Shown here piece after piece: positions 1,863 to 60,379 of a stretch of DNA of 64,000 nucleotides (the first letter of the stretch is position 1; each line of letters starts with the position of its first letter). The translations under genes and the position numbers were made by a program. Source of the stretch: Eledone cirrhosa (Eukaryota); the NCBI GenBank assembly GCA_964016885.1, contig CAXHJY010000762.1, forward strand, positions 1 through 64,000, in the 5' to 3' direction. The notes under the pieces are model-generated. The model did not search any database, was not told the origin of the DNA, and saw nothing but the letters and a program-made list of their open reading frames with translations.

Positions 1863-2261
1863 TAAGTATGCATGTATACGTACATACATATATGTATACA
1901 GACGTACAGTAGCATGCACATATATATATATATACATATATATATACATATGCATACAGGTACACATACATATATGCACGTATCAGTTTAGCGGCGCTAA
2001 CGTCGCTTTGTTCGTTTGTAAACAAACTGAACAGCCTGAACAAAAAGGTGACGTGGTTGCCTTAACACCGTATGGCATAAATTCAGGCTGTTCAGTTTGT
2101 TTACAAACGAACAAAGCGACGTTAGCGCCGCTAAACTGATACGTGCATATATGTATGTGTACCTGTATGCATATGTATATATATATGTATATATATATAT
2201 ATATGTGCATGCTACTGTACGTCTGTATACATATATGTATGTACGTATACATGCATACTTA
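1863..2261. repeat. Fold-back inverted duplication at the 5' end of the array
   Basis: 1863-2040 is the reverse complement of 2082-2261, with a 41-nt spacer (2041-2081). The junction uses the tgaa/ttca 4-bp complementarity present in the unit. Confidence 0.95.
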
Positions 2262-5200
2262 CATTTAAGTAAGTGCCATACTAAGAGTGAGAAATGAAAT
2301 TTCGTTTTCATTTTGTTTCAATTTATCGTTTTCGGTATGCCTGACCGATTTAACTCACTCAATATGCAAATTAGGCTGCTCAGCCGTTAATTTCATAAGG
2401 AAAGTATATACTTTCGAACGTTCAACTATCTGGCAGATAGGTAAACGGTGCTGATGATAGCTAACAAGCTTGAAACTAGTACATCGTTCCTGTGTCAGTG
2501 TTGAACAAAAAGGTGACGTGGTTGCCTTAACACCGTATGGCATAAATTCAGGCTGTTCAGTTTGTTTACAAACGAACAAAGCGACGTTAGCGCCGCTAAA
2601 CTGATACGTGCATATATGTATGTGTACCTGTATGCATATGTATATATATATATATATATATGTGCATGCTACTGTACGTCTGTATACATATATGTATGTA
2701 CGTATACATGCATACTTACATTTAAGTAAGTGCCATACTAAGAGTGAGAAATGAAATTTCGTTTTCATTTTGTTTCAATTTATCGTTTTCGGTATGCCTG
2801 ACCGATTTAACTCACTCAATATGCAAATTAGGCTGCTCAGCCGTTAATTTTCATAAGGAAAGTATATACTTTCGAACGTTCAACTATCTGGCAGATAGGT
2901 AAACGGTGCTGATGATAGCTAACAAGCTTGAAACTAGTACATCGTTCCTGTGTCAGTGTTGAACAAAAAGGTGACGTGGTTGCCTTAACACCGTATGGCA
3001 TAAATTCAGGCTGTTCAGTTTGTTTACAAACGAACAAAGCGACGTTAGCGCCGCTAAACTGATACGTGCATATATGTATGTGTACCTGTATGCATATGTA
3101 TATATATATGTATATATATATATATATGTGCATGCTACTGTACGTCTGTATACATATATGTATGTACGTATACATGCATACTTACATTTAAGTAAGTGCC
3201 ATACTAAGAGTGAGAAATGAAATTTCGTTTTCATTTTGTTTCAATTTATCGTTTTCGGTATGCCTGACCGATTTAACTCACTCAATATGCAAATTAGGCT
3301 GCTCAGCCGTTAATTTTCATAAGGAAAGTATATACTTTCGAACGTTCAACTATCTGGCAGATAGGTAAACGGTGCTGATGATAGCTAACAAGCTTGAAAC
3401 TAGTACATCGTTCCGGTGTCAGTGTTGAACAAAAAGGTGACGTGGTTGCCTTAACACCGTATGGCATAAATTCAGGCTGTTCAGTTTGTTTACAAACGAA
3501 CAAAGCGACGTTAGCGCCGCTAAACTGATACGTGCATATATGTATGTGTACCTGTATGCATATGTATATATATATGTATATATATATATATATGTGCATG
3601 CTACTGTACGTCTGTATACATATATGTATGTACGTATACATGCATACTTACATTTAAGTAAGTGCCATACTAAGAGTGAGAAATGAAATTTCGTTTTCAT
3701 TTTGTTTCAATTTATCGTTTTCGGTATGCCTGACCGATTTAACTCACTCAATATGCAAATTAGGCTGCTCAGCCGTTAATTTTCATAAGGAAAGTATATA
3801 CTTTCGAACGTTCAACTATCTGGCAGATAGGTAAACGGTGCTGATGATAGCTAACAAGCTTGAAACTAGTACATCGTTCCTGTGTCAGTGTTGAACAAAA
3901 AGGTGACGTGGTTGCCTTAACACCGTATGGCATAAATTCAGGCTGTTCAGTTTGTTTACAAACGAACAAAGCGACGTTAGCGCCGCTAAACTGATACGTG
4001 CATATATGTATGTGTACCTGTATGCATATGTATATATATATGTATATATATATATATATGTGCATGCTACTGTACGTCTGTATACATATATGTATGTACG
4101 TATACATGCATACTTACATTTAAGTAAGTGCCATACTAAGAGTGAGAAATGAAATTTCGTTTTCATTTTGTTTCAATTTATCGCTTTCGGTATGCCTGAC
4201 CGATTTAACTCACTCAATATGCAAATTAGGCTGCTCAGCCGTTAATTTTCATAAGGAAAGTATATACTTTCGAACGTTCAACTATCTGGCAGATAGGTAA
4301 ACGGTGCTGATGATAGCTAACAAGCTTGAAACTAGTACATCGTTCCTGTGTCAGTGTTGAACAAAAAGGTGACGTGGTTGCCTTAACACCGTATGGCATA
4401 AATTCAGGCTGTTCAGTTTGTTTACAAACGAACAAAGCGACGTTAGCGCCGCTAAACTGATACGTGCATATATGTATGTGTACCTGTATGCATATGTATA
4501 TATATATGTATATATATATATATATGTGCATGCTACTGTACGTCTGTATACATATATGTATGTACGTATACATGCATACTTACATTTAAGTAAGTGCCAT
4601 ACTAAGAGTGAGAAATGAAATTTCGTTTTCATTTTGTTTCAATTTATCGTTTTCGGTATGCCTGACCGATTTAACTCACTCAATATGCAAATTAGGCTGC
4701 TCAGCCGTTAATTTTCATAAGGAAAGTATATACTTTCGAACGTTCAACTATCTGGCAGATAGGTAAACGGTGCTGATGATAGCTAACAAGCTTGAAACTA
4801 GTACATCGTTCCTGTGTCAGTGTTGAACAAAAAGGTGACGTGGTTGCCTTAACACCGTATGGCATAAATTCAGGCTGTTCAGTTTGTTTACAAACGAACA
4901 AAGCGACGTTAGCGCCGCTAAACTGATACGTGCATATATGTATGTGTACCTGTATGCATATGTATATATATATGTATATATATATATATATGTGCATGCT
5001 ACTGTACGTCTGTATACATATATGTATGTACGTATACATGCATACTTACATTTAAGTAAGTGCCATACTAAGAGTGAGAAATGAAATTTCGTTTTCATTT
5101 TGTTTCAATTTATCGTTTTCGGTATGCCTGACCGATTTAACTCACTCAATATGCAAATTAGGCTGCTCAGCCGTTAATTTTCATAAGGAAAGTATATACT

Positions 5201-7444
5201 TTCGAACGTTCAACTATCTGGCAGATAGGTAAACGGTGCTGATGATAGCTAACAAGCTTGAAACTAGTACATCGTTCCTGTGTCAGTGTTGAACAAAAAG
5301 GTGACGTGGTTGCCTTAACACCGTATGGCATAAATTCAGGCTGTTCAGTTTGTTTACAAACGAACAAAGCGACGTTAGCGCCGCTAAACTGATACGTGCA
5401 TATATGTATGTGTACCTGTATGCATATGTATATATATATGTATATATATATATATATGTGCATGCTACTGTACGTCTGTATACATATATGTATGTACGTA
5501 TACATGCATACTTACATTTAAGTAAGTGCCATACTAAGAGTGAGAAATGAAATTTCGTTTTCATTTTGTTTCAATTTATCGTTTTCGGTATGCCTGACCG
5601 ATTTAACTCACTCAATATGCAAATTAGGCTGCTCAGCCGTTAATTTTCATAAGGAAAGTATATACTTTCGAACGTTCAACTATCTGGCAGATAGGTAAAC
5701 GGTGCTGATGATAGCTAACAAGCTTGAAACTAGTACATCGTTCCTGTGTCAGTGTTGAACAAAAAGGTGACGTGGTTGCCTTAACACCGTATGGCATAAA
5801 TTCAGGCTGTTCAGTTTGTTTACAAACGAACAAAGCGACGTTAGCGCCGCTAAACTGATACGTGCATATATGTATGTGTACCTGTATGCATATGTATATA
5901 TATATGTATATATATATATATATGTGCATGCTACTGTACGTCTGTATACATATATGTATGTACGTATACATGCATACTTACATTTAAGTAAGTGCCATAC
6001 TAAGAGTGAGAAATGAAATTTCGTTTTCATTTTGTTTCAATTTATCGTTTTCGGTATGCCTGACCGATTTAACTCACTCAATATGCAAATTAGGCTGCTC
6101 AGCCGTTAATTTTCATAAGGAAAGTATATACTTTCGAACGTTCAACTATCTGGCAGATAGGTAAACGGTGCTGATGATAGCTAACAAGCTTGAAACTAGT
6201 ACATCGTTCCTGTGTCAGTGTTGAACAAAAAGGTGACGTGGTTGCCTTAACACCGTATGGCATAAATTCAGGCTGTTCAGTTTGTTTACAAACGAACAAA
6301 GCGACGTTAGCGCCGCTAAACTGATACGTGCATATATGTATGTGTACCTGTATGCATATGTATATATATATGTATATATATATATATATGTGCATGCTAC
6401 TGTACGTCTGTATACATATATGTATGTACGTATACATGCATACTTACATTTAAGTAAGTGCCATACTAAGAGTGAGAAATGAAATTTCGTTTTCATTTTG
6501 TTTCAATTTATCGTTTTCGGTATGCCTGACCGATTTAACTCACTCAATATGCAAATTAGGCTGCTCAGCCGTTAATTTTCATAAGGAAAGTATATACTTT
6601 CGAACGTTCAACTATCTGGCAGATAGGTAAACGGTGCTGATGATAGCTAACAAGCTTGAAACTAGTACATCGTTCCTGTGTCAGTGTTGAACAAAAAGGT
6701 GACGTGGTTGCCTTAACACCGTATGGCATAAATTCAGGCTGTTCAGTTTGTTTACAAACGAACAAAGCGACGTTAGCGCCGCTAAACTGATACGTGCATA
6801 TATGTATGTGTACCTGTATGCATATGTATATATATATGTATATATATATATATATGTGCATGCTACTGTACGTCTGTATACATATATGTATGTACGTATA
6901 CATGCATACTTACATTTAAGTAAGTGCCATACTAAGAGTGACAAATGAAATTTCGTTTTCATTTTGTTTCAATTTATCGTTTTCGGTATGCCTGACCGAT
7001 TTAACTCACTCAATATGCAAATTAGGCTGCTCAGCCGTTAATTTTCATAAGGAAAGTATATACTTTCGAACGTTCAACTATCTGGCAGATAGGTAAACGG
7101 TGCTGATGATAGCTAACAAGCTTGAAACTAGTACATCGTTCCTGTGTCAGTGTTGAACAAAAAGGTGACGTGGTTGCCTTAACACCGTATGGCATAAATT
7201 CAGGCTGTTCAGTTTGTTTACAAACGAACAAAGCGACGTTAGCGCCGCTAAACTGATACGTGCATATATGTATGTGTACCTGTATGCATATGTATATATA
7301 TATGTATATATATATATATATGTGCATGCTACTGTACGTCTGTATACATATATGTATGTACGTATACATGCATACTTACATTTAAGTAAGTGCCATACTA
7401 AGAGTGAGAAATGAAATTTCGTTTTCATTTTGTTTCAATTTATC
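2037..7444 (+). repeat. Tandem array of ~11.6 copies of a 466-bp unit, each full unit carrying a hammerhead ribozyme (retrozyme-like / Penelope pLTR-like array)
   Basis: CTGATGA core recurs at 2451, 2909, 3375, 3841, 4307, 4773, 5239, 5705, 6171, 6637 and 7103 (period 466; first interval 458 owing to a shorter internal TA tract). I noticed only three substitutions (3415, 4184, 6942). Confidence 0.97.
2439..2491 (+). ncRNA. Minimal type I hammerhead ribozyme (first of 11 copies)
   Basis: agg-ta-AACGGTG (stem I) CTGATGA t AGCT-aaca-AGCT (stem II) t GAAA CTAG TA^ CATCGTT-cct (stem I'). Intact CUGAUGA/GAAA core, GUA cleavage triplet (cut after 2481), palindromic ACTAGT stem III typical of dimer-forming minimal HHRs. 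Confidence 0.9.
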
Positions 7445-12375
<4,931 letters not shown>

Positions 12376-21759: not shown

Positions 21760-21980
21760 AATGAAATAACAGGAGGCTGGACTGGTGTAAATCCTTGAAA
21801 GGTTTATTATACTATGATCATTTCAATGACCGGGTTCCATATGAATCCGGTGATATCATCAGGTAGTGGAATATAACAAAGGAATATGTAAAAAGCCATG
21901 GGTCCGAAAAACCATGGGTCCGGGAAACCAGAGACAGAGAGGGCAGCTGACCAACTAGCTTCACAGCCAGCCGCCCTCAA
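21760..21980 (-). mobile_element. HHR-bearing non-autonomous element (family B, copy 1); ribozyme at 21809-21866
   Basis: Reverse complement reads tac CTGATGA tatcaccgg...ccggtcatt GAAA TGATCA TA gtat; near-identical to 27737-27835; flanked by (TA)n on both sides. Confidence 0.8.
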
Positions 21981-21981
21981 A

Positions 21982-22025
<44 letters not shown>

Positions 22026-26757: not shown

Positions 26758-27596
26758 TCGGGCTGAGAGGATATTAAATATGTTGTGTGAAAGCCTGGAA
26801 AACTGACTGCGATTAAAAGGTAAAACATTTACAAATATTACTAAAACGAAAAACAAATATCAGAAATCCCGCCCCAAACCACACATACCATAAATGGATA
26901 ATGTAGGTATTGTGTATGAATCTCTCTCTATATATCTATGTGACAATGAATGGCACTGCATATGTGTGTGTGTGTATATATATATGTATATATACACCTC
27001 TCTCTATATATATTTAAATATAAGCATATATACACGTAAAAATACACAAACAATTTATCTATCTATATATGTAGGTATATAGTACATACATACGTACGCA
27101 CATACACAAGTACACACACATGAATGAACTCATTCTGTGAGTGAGACATACAGAAAATGGAAACAAGACGAAAAAAAAAAAGAAATGTTAACAGTGATAT
27201 ATAATAAGTGTTTGATAAAAGTCGCTGATGCTTTAGCTCTGTATTCCAAATCAATTTAGTTGATGTATTAAGGGATTTGAAAGACTGGAGTGTGCTCAGC
27301 TGGGCGTTGAAATTAGGTCTAACGCAGGGGTTAGTATAGAATAGTTTTATCGTCTCTGAAATAGAATTGCTCCTCCTTTATATGTGCATGTATGATAGTT
27401 ATGGAGAGTGTTGGAGGTAGGGAATGGACATAGAATGGGTTGAATAATAGGTAAAAAGCACTGTCGAGTCACAGAAGTATATCAGTTGAGGAATATACAT
27501 GTACAGACACATATATATAATCTATCTCTCAGTCTTTGTATATACAATATATTTATATGACATGTGTGTATGCATACTTAAATATATATATATATA

Positions 27597-27989
27597 TTTA
27601 GGTTTGAAGGTTCACCACTGGATAGAGCTGGAGGGCGACCGGCTAAAGTGGAAGATGCTAGATGGTCGGTCGTCCTCGGGTCTATGATTTTCAGCCCTAT
27701 GGATTTTATCTGTTACATTCATTTATTATATTTCGAATACCTGATGATATCACCGGATTCATACGGAACCCGGTCATTGAAATGATCATAGTATAATAAA
27801 CCTTTCAAGGATTTACACCAGTCCAGCCTCCTGTTATTTTATTATAATATTTAACTCCGTACTCGCACCACCAACTACACAAACGAAGACGGTTGAGCTG
27901 CTTTACGTTGAGTACTCTCCATATTATTACATCAAGATTGACCATACGGAATGACCAGCTCTATCCAGTGGTGAACCTTCAAACCTAAA
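27597..27989 (+). mobile_element. HHR-bearing element (family B, copy 2) with 35-bp terminal inverted repeat, in (TA)n
   Basis: 27597-27631 is the reverse complement of 27955-27989; internal hairpin 27631-27677 and HHR 27737-27794. Confidence 0.85.
27737..27794 (+). ncRNA. Type I hammerhead ribozyme (family B)
   Basis: ATAC CTGATGA tatcACCGG-attcatacggaac-CCGGTcatt GAAA TGATCA TA^ GTAT; stem I atac/gtat, palindromic atgatcat stem III, AUA triplet (cut after 27790). Confidence 0.8.
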
Positions 27990-28387
27990 TATATATATAT
28001 ATATATATATATTATGTATGTGTGTGTTTATATATATGTAGGTATATATGTTTGTGTATGTTTGTATTGATTCATAAGTTACTAGTTAGATAAACTCTAC
28101 ATAGTTAGTGAGATATATACATCAATGGAGAGAGAGAGTAAATGTACAGTACGGCCAAACAGGTGTAAAATACATGTTTATCATCAGAAATAAGGTTTAA
28201 AGGAAGCAGTTGGCTACCCGCTGGAGTGAGACCCCTCCCTGAGTTCCACTGAGTATTTCAAGGTGTCTTCATTGTTATAAGGTTCTGCTCACTGAGACCA
28301 TGAGACAACATACCCCTGGTGTTGTACACGTCTGACAGAGATCTCCCACATCGTCCTGTCATATATCATTATTGTAAAGATAGTAGT

Positions 28388-60143: not shown

Positions 60144-60379
60144 CATACAATTAACATCAACAACAACAATAATAATAATAATAACAACAATGATAATAAT
60201 AATAACAATAATAACAACAATAAAAATAATAACAATAATAACAACAACAATAATAAAAGCCAGTAATGTTGTAAATACACATTTAACAAGACCGGACAAA
60301 GAAAAATAAAAGAATTAACAACAAAAAGAAAAATAGATTAAATGTAAAACAAGAGATGTGTAAAGAAATTGAATCTAGA

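What the first reader, a model, noticed from the sequence alone, without database searches (positions are those of the whole stretch)
27597..27989. Second hammerhead family: single-HHR element bracketed by a perfect 35-bp inverted terminus
Seen: an intact HHR (27737-27794; U-U at the base of stem II as in the array HHR; palindromic ATGATCAT stem III) inside a ~390-bp element whose last 35 bp reappear inverted at its 5' end, embedded in (TA)n. It looks like a MITE but carries a ribozyme. The second copy at 21760-21980 has no such termini, so the inverted end may be a retro-insertion by-product rather than a transposase TIR (inference).
Basis: partly seen in the sequence, partly recalled or inferred. 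Interest (0 to 1): 0.75.

Follow-up and report, generated by a model that had tools for sequence, protein, structure and literature searches.

The report
Penelope-type ribozyme stub mimicking a MITE
This is a short stub of a roughly 2-kb non-coding jumping element, present thousands of times in this animal genome, that carries a predicted self-cutting RNA motif and is likely copied by Penelope-type enzymes; its mirrored ends belong to this one copy and are not fixed transposon ends, so it is a new member of a known kind.

Summary
In detail: a type I hammerhead motif (27737-27794) and an exact 35-bp inverted end, in (TA)n. It is not a MITE. Of the 40 best genomic matches only this copy has the 35-bp 5' arm. 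The 393 bp are the pseudo-LTR (27631-27853) plus a 136-nt tail of a ~2.06-kb non-coding repeat unit; a hammerhead 25-mer occurs 4,796 times. Inverted arms are common (48 of 86 tail-bearing copies) but run from 26 to 1,575 bp, always tail-out. In 30 of 35 two-armed insertions one arm ends at the pLTR end and the other at the tail end, the known Penelope-like (PLE) layout; none is tail+tail, so this copy's TIR-like symmetry is a rare variant. 5' ends pile up at a covarying hairpin that starts the pLTR (12 of 31), not at the hammerhead cut (1 of 35), which points to an uncut RNA template. No ORF, no autonomous partner and no RNA data were found; cleavage is untested. The scan has noted the same layout for other PLE families elsewhere in this genome. 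Verdict: new non-autonomous member of a known kind.

The parts
27582..27596 (.). left (TA)n target run
   Evidence: sequence
27597..27631 (-). short inverted arm: last 34-35 nt of the tail, tail-out; shares 1 nt (G27631) with the long arm; specific to this copy
27631..27853 (+). pseudo-LTR (unit positions ~1694-1916); starts at the family's 5'-end hot spot, ends at the short 3' end (27848-27853)
27631..27677 (+). 15-bp 5' hairpin, z -6.2, compensatory changes between subfamilies
27737..27794 (+). type I hammerhead motif, long stem II with U10.1-U11.1, palindromic stem III; predicted cut 27790/27791; activity untested
27854..27989 (+). 136-nt optional tail (unit 1917-2052); in full-length copies it runs on into the ~1.7-kb non-coding body
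27990..28011 (.). right (TA)n target run
   Evidence: sequence
21760..21982 (-). solo pLTR of subfamily B (hairpin start to short end, hammerhead 21809-21866), no tail, no inverted arm, (TA)n on both sides

Best explanation
The stretch is the pseudo-LTR plus tail of a ~2-kb non-coding repeat family with Penelope-like (PLE) architecture, inserted in (TA)n with a second, 35-bp copy of its 3' end in inverted orientation, and it was likely made by a borrowed PLE reverse transcriptase/endonuclease priming from both sides of a break. Shown: unit structure, two fixed 3' ends, variable 5' ends, variable tail-out inverted arms, partial tandems, (TA)n flanks, no ORF. Inferred: an RNA starting at the hairpin (~27627-27631) is bound by the protein of an autonomous PLE; the GIY-YIG domain cuts both strands of (TA)n; each 3'-OH primes reverse transcription at an internal site (normally one at the pLTR end, one at the tail end); the two truncated cDNAs are joined head to head through 0-4 nt of microhomology. 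Here the long arm ran from the tail end to the RNA's 5' end and the other arm, unusually also begun at the tail end, stopped after 34-35 nt, which gives a TIR look-alike. The hammerhead is predicted to be weak as a monomer, to need a dimer or protein, and not to be cut in the template used for insertion.
For: 39 of 40 best matches begin at query 32-41, without the arm. Copies extend upstream into a shared 2,052-nt unit whose tail rejoins its start; 30 of 30 loci fetched for that junction show it and none opens into an ORF. 48 of 86 tail-bearing arms have an adjacent inverted arm, 26-1,575 bp, median 122 (n=45 not cut by the fetched edge); 40 of 48 end at the short end. Hammerhead-anchored sample: 35 of 63 insertions two-armed and tail-out, 30 short+tail, 2 short+short, 3 with one end cut, 0 tail+tail; 20 of 20 neighbouring hammerhead pairs within 2.5 kb are tail-out. 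78 of 86 tail ends are followed by (TAAA)n(TA)n. 5' ends: 12 of 31 in unit 1600-1800 fall in 1688-1695 (binomial p 1e-9), 1 of 35 at the cut (p 0.76). Hammerhead 94.8% identical between subfamilies against 66.9% for the body. An unrelated intact PLE in the same genome shows the same inverted 5' pLTR and two ends. Published layout matches: PMC8557442, PMC3846280; both-strand cutting, two internal start sites and uncut template in vitro: PMC11167929.
Against: No autonomous partner sharing the pLTR or tail was found (62 PLE-protein loci screened; 63 hammerhead loci), so PLE mobilisation rests on architecture. Tail+tail symmetry was seen in 0 of 35 and 0 of 48 other two-armed insertions, so this copy's short arm may have another origin. 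The tail is 136 nt, not the 30-40 bp described. Ends are BLAST-defined; one of the 12 hot-spot ends (L192) is an internal deletion, not a true end. No target-site duplication or empty site can be read in (TA)n. Within subfamily A the core is no better conserved than its neighbours (2.6% versus 2.2% mismatch; 75 of 87 cores intact), and the hammerhead stems show only one one-sided change.
Confidence: 0.85

Rival explanations
1. Same family, but this copy's 35-bp arm did not come from a second priming event: it arose by fold-back or template switch of the first cDNA, or by repair after insertion that duplicated the 3' end in reverse.
For: Tail+tail is absent from 35 and 48 other two-armed insertions; the arm is 100% identical to the copy's own 3' end and joins with a 1-nt overlap. 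Self-priming has been proposed for PLE inversions (PMC3846280).
Against: The last 35 nt are identical in most subfamily A copies, so identity does not show self-copying; short arms of 26-60 bp and 0-4 nt overlaps are normal for the family; a few short+short pairs show that the one-of-each rule leaks.
Confidence: 0.3
2. A giant non-LTR retrozyme: the hammerhead cuts tandem transcripts into 2.06-kb monomers that circularise and are copied by rolling-circle reverse transcription.
For: The unit closes on itself (tail to body start) in two subfamilies 67-70% alike; the hammerhead is the most conserved part; a circle would also leave no 5' ends at the cut; circles are shown for coral, mussel and axolotl retrozymes (PMC7229834).
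Against: 5' ends pile up at a fixed point at the pLTR start, which a circle lacks; copies are dispersed and truncated rather than long arrays; described animal monomers are 51-972 bp (bioRxiv 10.64898/2026.07.22.740005); the monomer hammerhead fold is far from the minimum-energy fold (-2.4 versus -16.5 kcal/mol). It is a variant of the best reading, not exclusive of it.
Confidence: 0.15
3. A MITE (non-autonomous DNA transposon) with 35-bp TIRs that targets TA and happens to carry a hammerhead.
For: Perfect 35-bp inverted ends, ~390 bp, no ORF, TA flanks.
Against: No second copy with these ends among 40 best matches; variable 5' ends and arm lengths; contigs of public runs continue past 27631 into family upstream sequence (loose ends).
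Confidence: 0.02

Closest known systems
Endonuclease-bearing Penelope-like elements (Penelope/Poseidon, Neptune, Nematis, Hydra): partial tandems, inverted 5'-truncated pLTR, one-sided tail, hammerhead in pLTR, (TA)n targets (PMC8557442, PMC3846280; passages read)
   Same: pLTR with hammerhead, optional tail at one end, tail-out inverted arm of variable length, partial tandem, (TA)n insertion.
   Different: No RT/GIY-YIG ORF (a ~1.7-kb non-coding body instead); tail 136 nt rather than 30-40 bp; this copy has the tail end on both arms.
Poseidon_Ac in vitro (Frangieh et al. 2024, PMC11167929; parts 1-2 of 4 read)
   Same: Two fixed reverse-transcription start points that define the tail, AT-rich targets, no ends at the hammerhead cut.
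   Different: Here inferred from genomic ends only; start sites 136 nt apart; element is non-coding.
PLE hammerhead variants (Cervera and de la Pena 2014, PMC4209133; parts 1-2 of 4 read)
   Same: Type I, short helix I, long helix II, small palindromic helix III suited to dimers.
   Different: U10.1-U11.1 instead of the conserved G10.1-C11.1; that mismatch is itself described in natural hammerheads (PMC3088659, passage).
Non-autonomous PLE derivatives: MRC1 of Chlamydomonas (PMC8557442, passage) and animal non-LTR retrozymes (PMC7229834, passages; bioRxiv 10.64898/2026.07.22.740005, parts 1-3 of 5)
   Same: Non-coding, pLTR-forming or hammerhead-bearing repeats thought to use PLE proteins.

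Membership tests
Non-autonomous EN+ Penelope-like element | Partial tandem forming a pLTR, 5' truncation | tested here: met
   truncated 3' part + full unit; variable 5' ends
Non-autonomous EN+ Penelope-like element | Inverted 5'-truncated copy giving tail-out inverted repeats of variable length | tested here: met
   48 of 86, 26-1,575 bp; 35 of 63
Non-autonomous EN+ Penelope-like element | Optional 3' tail, usually at one end only | tested here: met
   30 of 35 short+tail; tail is 136 nt, longer than the 30-40 bp described; the window copy is an exception
Non-autonomous EN+ Penelope-like element | Hammerhead motif in the pLTR | tested here: met
   by core and stems, no Rfam model hit
Non-autonomous EN+ Penelope-like element | Microsatellite (TA)n targeting | tested here: met
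   78 of 86 tail ends; no genome-wide chance control, (TA)n is abundant here
Non-autonomous EN+ Penelope-like element | Sequence shared with an autonomous RT + GIY-YIG partner | tested here: inconclusive
   none in 62 PLE-protein loci, 30 junction loci, 63 hammerhead loci; only a small part of >10,000 GIY-YIG candidates was seen
Autonomous PLE | ORF with PLE RT and GIY-YIG | tested here: not met
   longest open frame in the unit 104 aa, low complexity; tblastn of an intact PLE protein against the unit best E 0.64
MITE | Fixed TIRs and uniform length among copies | tested here: not met
   1 of 40 has the 35-bp arm; arm lengths vary
MITE | Target-site duplication of fixed length | tested here: inconclusive
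   unreadable in (TA)n; no empty paralogous site
Non-LTR retrozyme | Short (about 0.2-1 kb) tandem monomers each with a type I hammerhead | tested here: not met
   unit 2.06 kb, dispersed, no +/+ or -/- hammerhead neighbours within 2.5 kb among the first 100 matches; partial tandems exist
Non-LTR retrozyme | Self-cleavage and circular RNA | not testable with these tools
   bench assay needed
Active hammerhead ribozyme | Core C3 U4 G5 A6 G8 A9 G12 A13 A14 A15.1 U16.1 H17 | tested here: met
   window copy complete; 75 of 87 sampled copies complete
Active hammerhead ribozyme | Cleavage after H17 | not testable with these tools
   monomer fold predicted unfavourable, palindrome duplex -7.2 kcal/mol

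The most novel reading that the evidence does not exclude
A 2-kb, fully non-coding PLE parasite, larger than described animal retrozymes and old enough to have split into subfamilies 67% alike, whose thousands of insertions record the PLE reaction: an uncut RNA that starts at a covarying hairpin is copied from both sides of a (TA)n break, with one arm obligately started at the pLTR end and the other 136 nt downstream at the tail end. That would make it a compact, ORF-free substrate to define the cis-signals of PLE two-ended priming and to show that the conserved hammerhead acts outside the insertion step.
Probability: 0.4. Interest if true: 0.55.

Novelty: new member of a known kind. Interest (0 to 1): 0.3.

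Why it matters
How PLEs make inverted ends and one-sided tails, and what their hammerheads do, is still open (PMC8557442, PMC11167929). This family gives countable genomic evidence (one short end plus one tail end in 30 of 35 two-armed insertions; 5' ends at the pLTR start, not at the ribozyme cut) and a short non-coding template for the existing in vitro assay. Practically, it shows that PLE stubs in (TA)n can pass as MITEs in TIR-based annotation. The specific feature flagged, the perfect 35-bp end, is a one-copy accident, and the architecture is described.

Tried and rejected
Rfam: whole window swamped by miRNA false hits on (TA)n, only the best 150 of 732 rows shown; no hammerhead model on the element alone. 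RNA evidence: no RNA holder listed; three contig sets of one sample were laid, no listed piece spans the junction at 27631 or the left flank, so the junction is neither confirmed nor questioned. Empty or paralogous site: left flank is single-copy. Coding relic: a ~120-codon quasi-open frame across tail and body start in subfamily B is broken by stops and shifts in A and its variants; rejected. Partner search: the young 1,217-aa PLE has an unrelated pLTR; top GIY-YIG loci show no pLTR or tail match; a Neptune-like piece upstream of L188 is a separate insertion. Pile-up of 5' ends at the hammerhead cut: not seen (1 of 35; 3 of 52 with both arms). Twin-hairpin lead from earlier scan notes: loose bulged stems can be drawn a few bases past both ends, but folds vary between copies and no covariation was established (one search stopped on a script error after printing one set); inconclusive. 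Relation to the 466-bp array: no meaningful similarity beyond the shared U-U. Literature searches listed no description of this family; Repbase/Dfam were not available and supplements were not read (Craig et al. file S1 could hold the partner).

Full report
Observation. The window reads (TA)n, then 27597-27989, then (TA)n. A script shows that 27597-27631 is the exact reverse complement of 27955-27989, 35 of 35 bases, with 15 more matching bases outside that are only (TA)n. The hammerhead core starts at 27741; stem I is AUAC/GUAU, stem II begins with U-U and continues AU/AU, a C-C mismatch, ACCGG/CCGGU and a short distal stem; stem III and loop are the palindrome AUGAUCAU; the predicted cut is after A27790. 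Rfam gives no hammerhead match on the element at E<=10. The second copy at 21760-21982 (minus) is 87.5% identical over 168 bp and has no inverted end. The array at 2037-7444 has 11 hammerheads with the same U-U and no other real similarity.

The inverted end is not a family feature. The window lies in a 3.0-Gb genome. Of the 40 best-scoring matches to the 393 bp (3,211 candidates), only the window itself covers query 1-35 at its 5' end; the other 39 start at query 32-41. In the 30 loci fetched, the 3' end is fixed and followed by (TAAA)n(TA)n, while the 5' side is either more shared sequence, (TA)n, or an inverted piece of another length. Contigs of public runs also continue past 27631 into the family's upstream sequence.

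The real element. Longer stretches define a 2,052-nt unit (reference: locus L033). In unit coordinates (window = unit + 25,937) the pLTR is ~1690-1916, the predicted cut 1853/1854, the tail 1917-2052, and the tail joins unit position 1 through a short TAAA linker. All 30 loci fetched for this junction show it and none opens into a long ORF. The unit's longest open frame is 104 low-complexity residues. The 21760 copy belongs to subfamily B, which has the same two 3' ends, the same tail-to-body junction and ~70% identity along the unit. An exact 24-mer of the subfamily A tail end occurs 262 times; an exact 25-mer of the hammerhead occurs 4,796 times; both controls 0.

Unbiased samples. Tail-anchored: matches 1-92 of the 262, in genome order, gave 90 loci; I dropped 4 (two duplicates of one insertion or tandem, two whose 5' end lay outside the fetched DNA). 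Of 86 arms, 48 have an adjacent inverted arm; lengths are 26-1,575 bp, median 122 (45 not cut by the edge); 40 of 48 end at unit 1905-1917, 8 are cut or end elsewhere, none ends at the tail end. 78 of 86 tail ends are followed by (TAAA)n(TA)n, 4 run into the body, 4 other. Hammerhead-anchored: matches 1-81 of 4,796, one skipped and second arms merged, gave 63 insertions; 35 are two-armed and tail-out: 30 short+tail, 2 short+short, 3 with one end cut, 0 tail+tail; 28 are single (arms under 24 bp would be missed). Among the first 100 listed matches, all 20 neighbours within 2.5 kb are minus-then-plus, 21-1,470 bp apart. So inversion is the rule, its length is free, and the window's tail+tail symmetry is the exception that creates the TIR look.

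Where copies start. 12 of the 31 5' ends in unit 1600-1800 fall in 1688-1695 (binomial p 1e-9; one of them, L192, is an internal deletion), against 1 of 35 at the cut (p 0.76); with inner ends of inverted arms 15 of 49 and 3 of 52. Both window copies start at this point, and several full-length copies begin there too (L051, L211, L212, L219). It is the 5' foot of a 15-bp hairpin (z -6.2 in A, -3.7 in B) with 94.6% of cells paired and 4 pairs changed on both sides across 9 subfamily representatives (the structure came from one of the sequences, and relatedness is not controlled). A stalled enzyme would stop on the 3' side of a hairpin, so I read the point as the RNA's 5' end (inference; the CACTT there resembles the initiator-like TCACT noted in PMC3846280).

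The hammerhead. Between one A and one B copy it is 94.8% identical, against 66.9% for the body and 86% for the tail; all 22 of 1,295 58-nt windows that reach this value start at 1799-1845. Within the sample 75 of 87 cores are complete and the core decays like its neighbours (2.6% versus 2.2%), as expected for dead copies. The active monomer fold scores -2.4 kcal/mol against -16.5 for a competing fold; the palindrome can pair between two molecules (-7.2) (nearest-neighbour energies ignore the core's non-canonical pairs). U10.1-U11.1 is a described natural variant (PMC3088659, passage). PLE hammerheads with small palindromic helix III and low activity are described (PMC4209133, parts 1-2 of 4).

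Mechanism and comparison. Craig et al. describe partial tandems, an adjacent inverted 5'-truncated copy, a tail often at one end only, (TA)n bias and non-autonomous pLTR-forming elements such as MRC1 (PMC8557442, passages); Arkhipova et al. describe inverted pLTRs, solo-pLTR trans-mobilisation and a self-priming alternative (PMC3846280, passages); the curation guide repeats this (PMC8969392, passages). Frangieh et al. show cutting and extension of both strands, two internal start sites that bound the tail, and uncut RNA as main substrate (PMC11167929, parts 1-2 of 4). The family fits all of these except that it has no ORF and a longer tail. Animal retrozymes (PMC7229834, passages; bioRxiv 10.64898/2026.07.22.740005, parts 1-3 of 5) are shorter tandem units regarded as PLE derivatives. 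The two-ended priming model is inferred; the protein is unknown. A very young autonomous PLE with an intact 1,217-aa frame is abundant in this genome and has its own inverted pLTRs and tail, but shares no sequence with this family; the top GIY-YIG loci do not either.

Novelty. Five literature searches listed no description of this family; repeat databases and supplements were not seen. Earlier scan notes hold no look-alike sequence and nothing nearby, but report the same layout, end rule and fixed inner start for other PLE families of this genome; my counts were made before I read them, the second sample after. Verdict: a new non-autonomous member of a known kind; the flagged 35-bp terminus is a single-copy by-product. 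Interest 0.3.

Noticed in passing
L253:1327-4977 and 5464-9114 (G000:C3:182889000-182898900); L254: Very young autonomous PLE, 1,217-aa open frame with RT, CX4CxxC linker and C-terminal GIY-YIG (Neptune-like by domain order, not placed on a tree), a long Asn-rich insert before the RT, 4.13-kb tandems, its own minimal hammerhead and ~40-nt tail; 118 of 118 scored matches at 99-100% identity, many with intact frames.
   Followed up: partly
window 2037-7444: 466-bp tandem array, 11.6 copies, 99% identical, 11 type I hammerheads with U-U at the base of stem II and palindromic ACUAGU stem III; retrozyme-like and unrelated in sequence to the element studied.
   Followed up: partly
window 60153-60322: Diverged (69-78%) match to the hammerhead/pLTR region of the young autonomous PLE.
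   Followed up: no
L109/L110 (G000:C1:79763764 and 79765170): A two-armed insertion (short arm plus 29-bp tail piece) duplicated in tandem 1.4 kb apart with the same junction.
   Followed up: no
L081, L085, L095, L097 (G000:C4:320.05-320.56 Mb): Four subfamily B copies share their 3' flank: segmental duplications, not independent insertions.
   Followed up: no
L197-L221: Older subfamilies (81-88% to A) carry internal duplications of body segments (unit 729-1449, 310-660), so unit length differs between subfamilies while pLTR and tail stay fixed.
   Followed up: no
window 27722-27732 with 27790-27800: A helix that competes with hammerhead stem I is kept in subfamily B through a G-U change; it could hold the ribozyme off in monomers.
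   Followed up: partly
loci L001-L314: At least five other hammerhead families turned up in the (TA)n flanks of the fetched loci.
   Followed up: no
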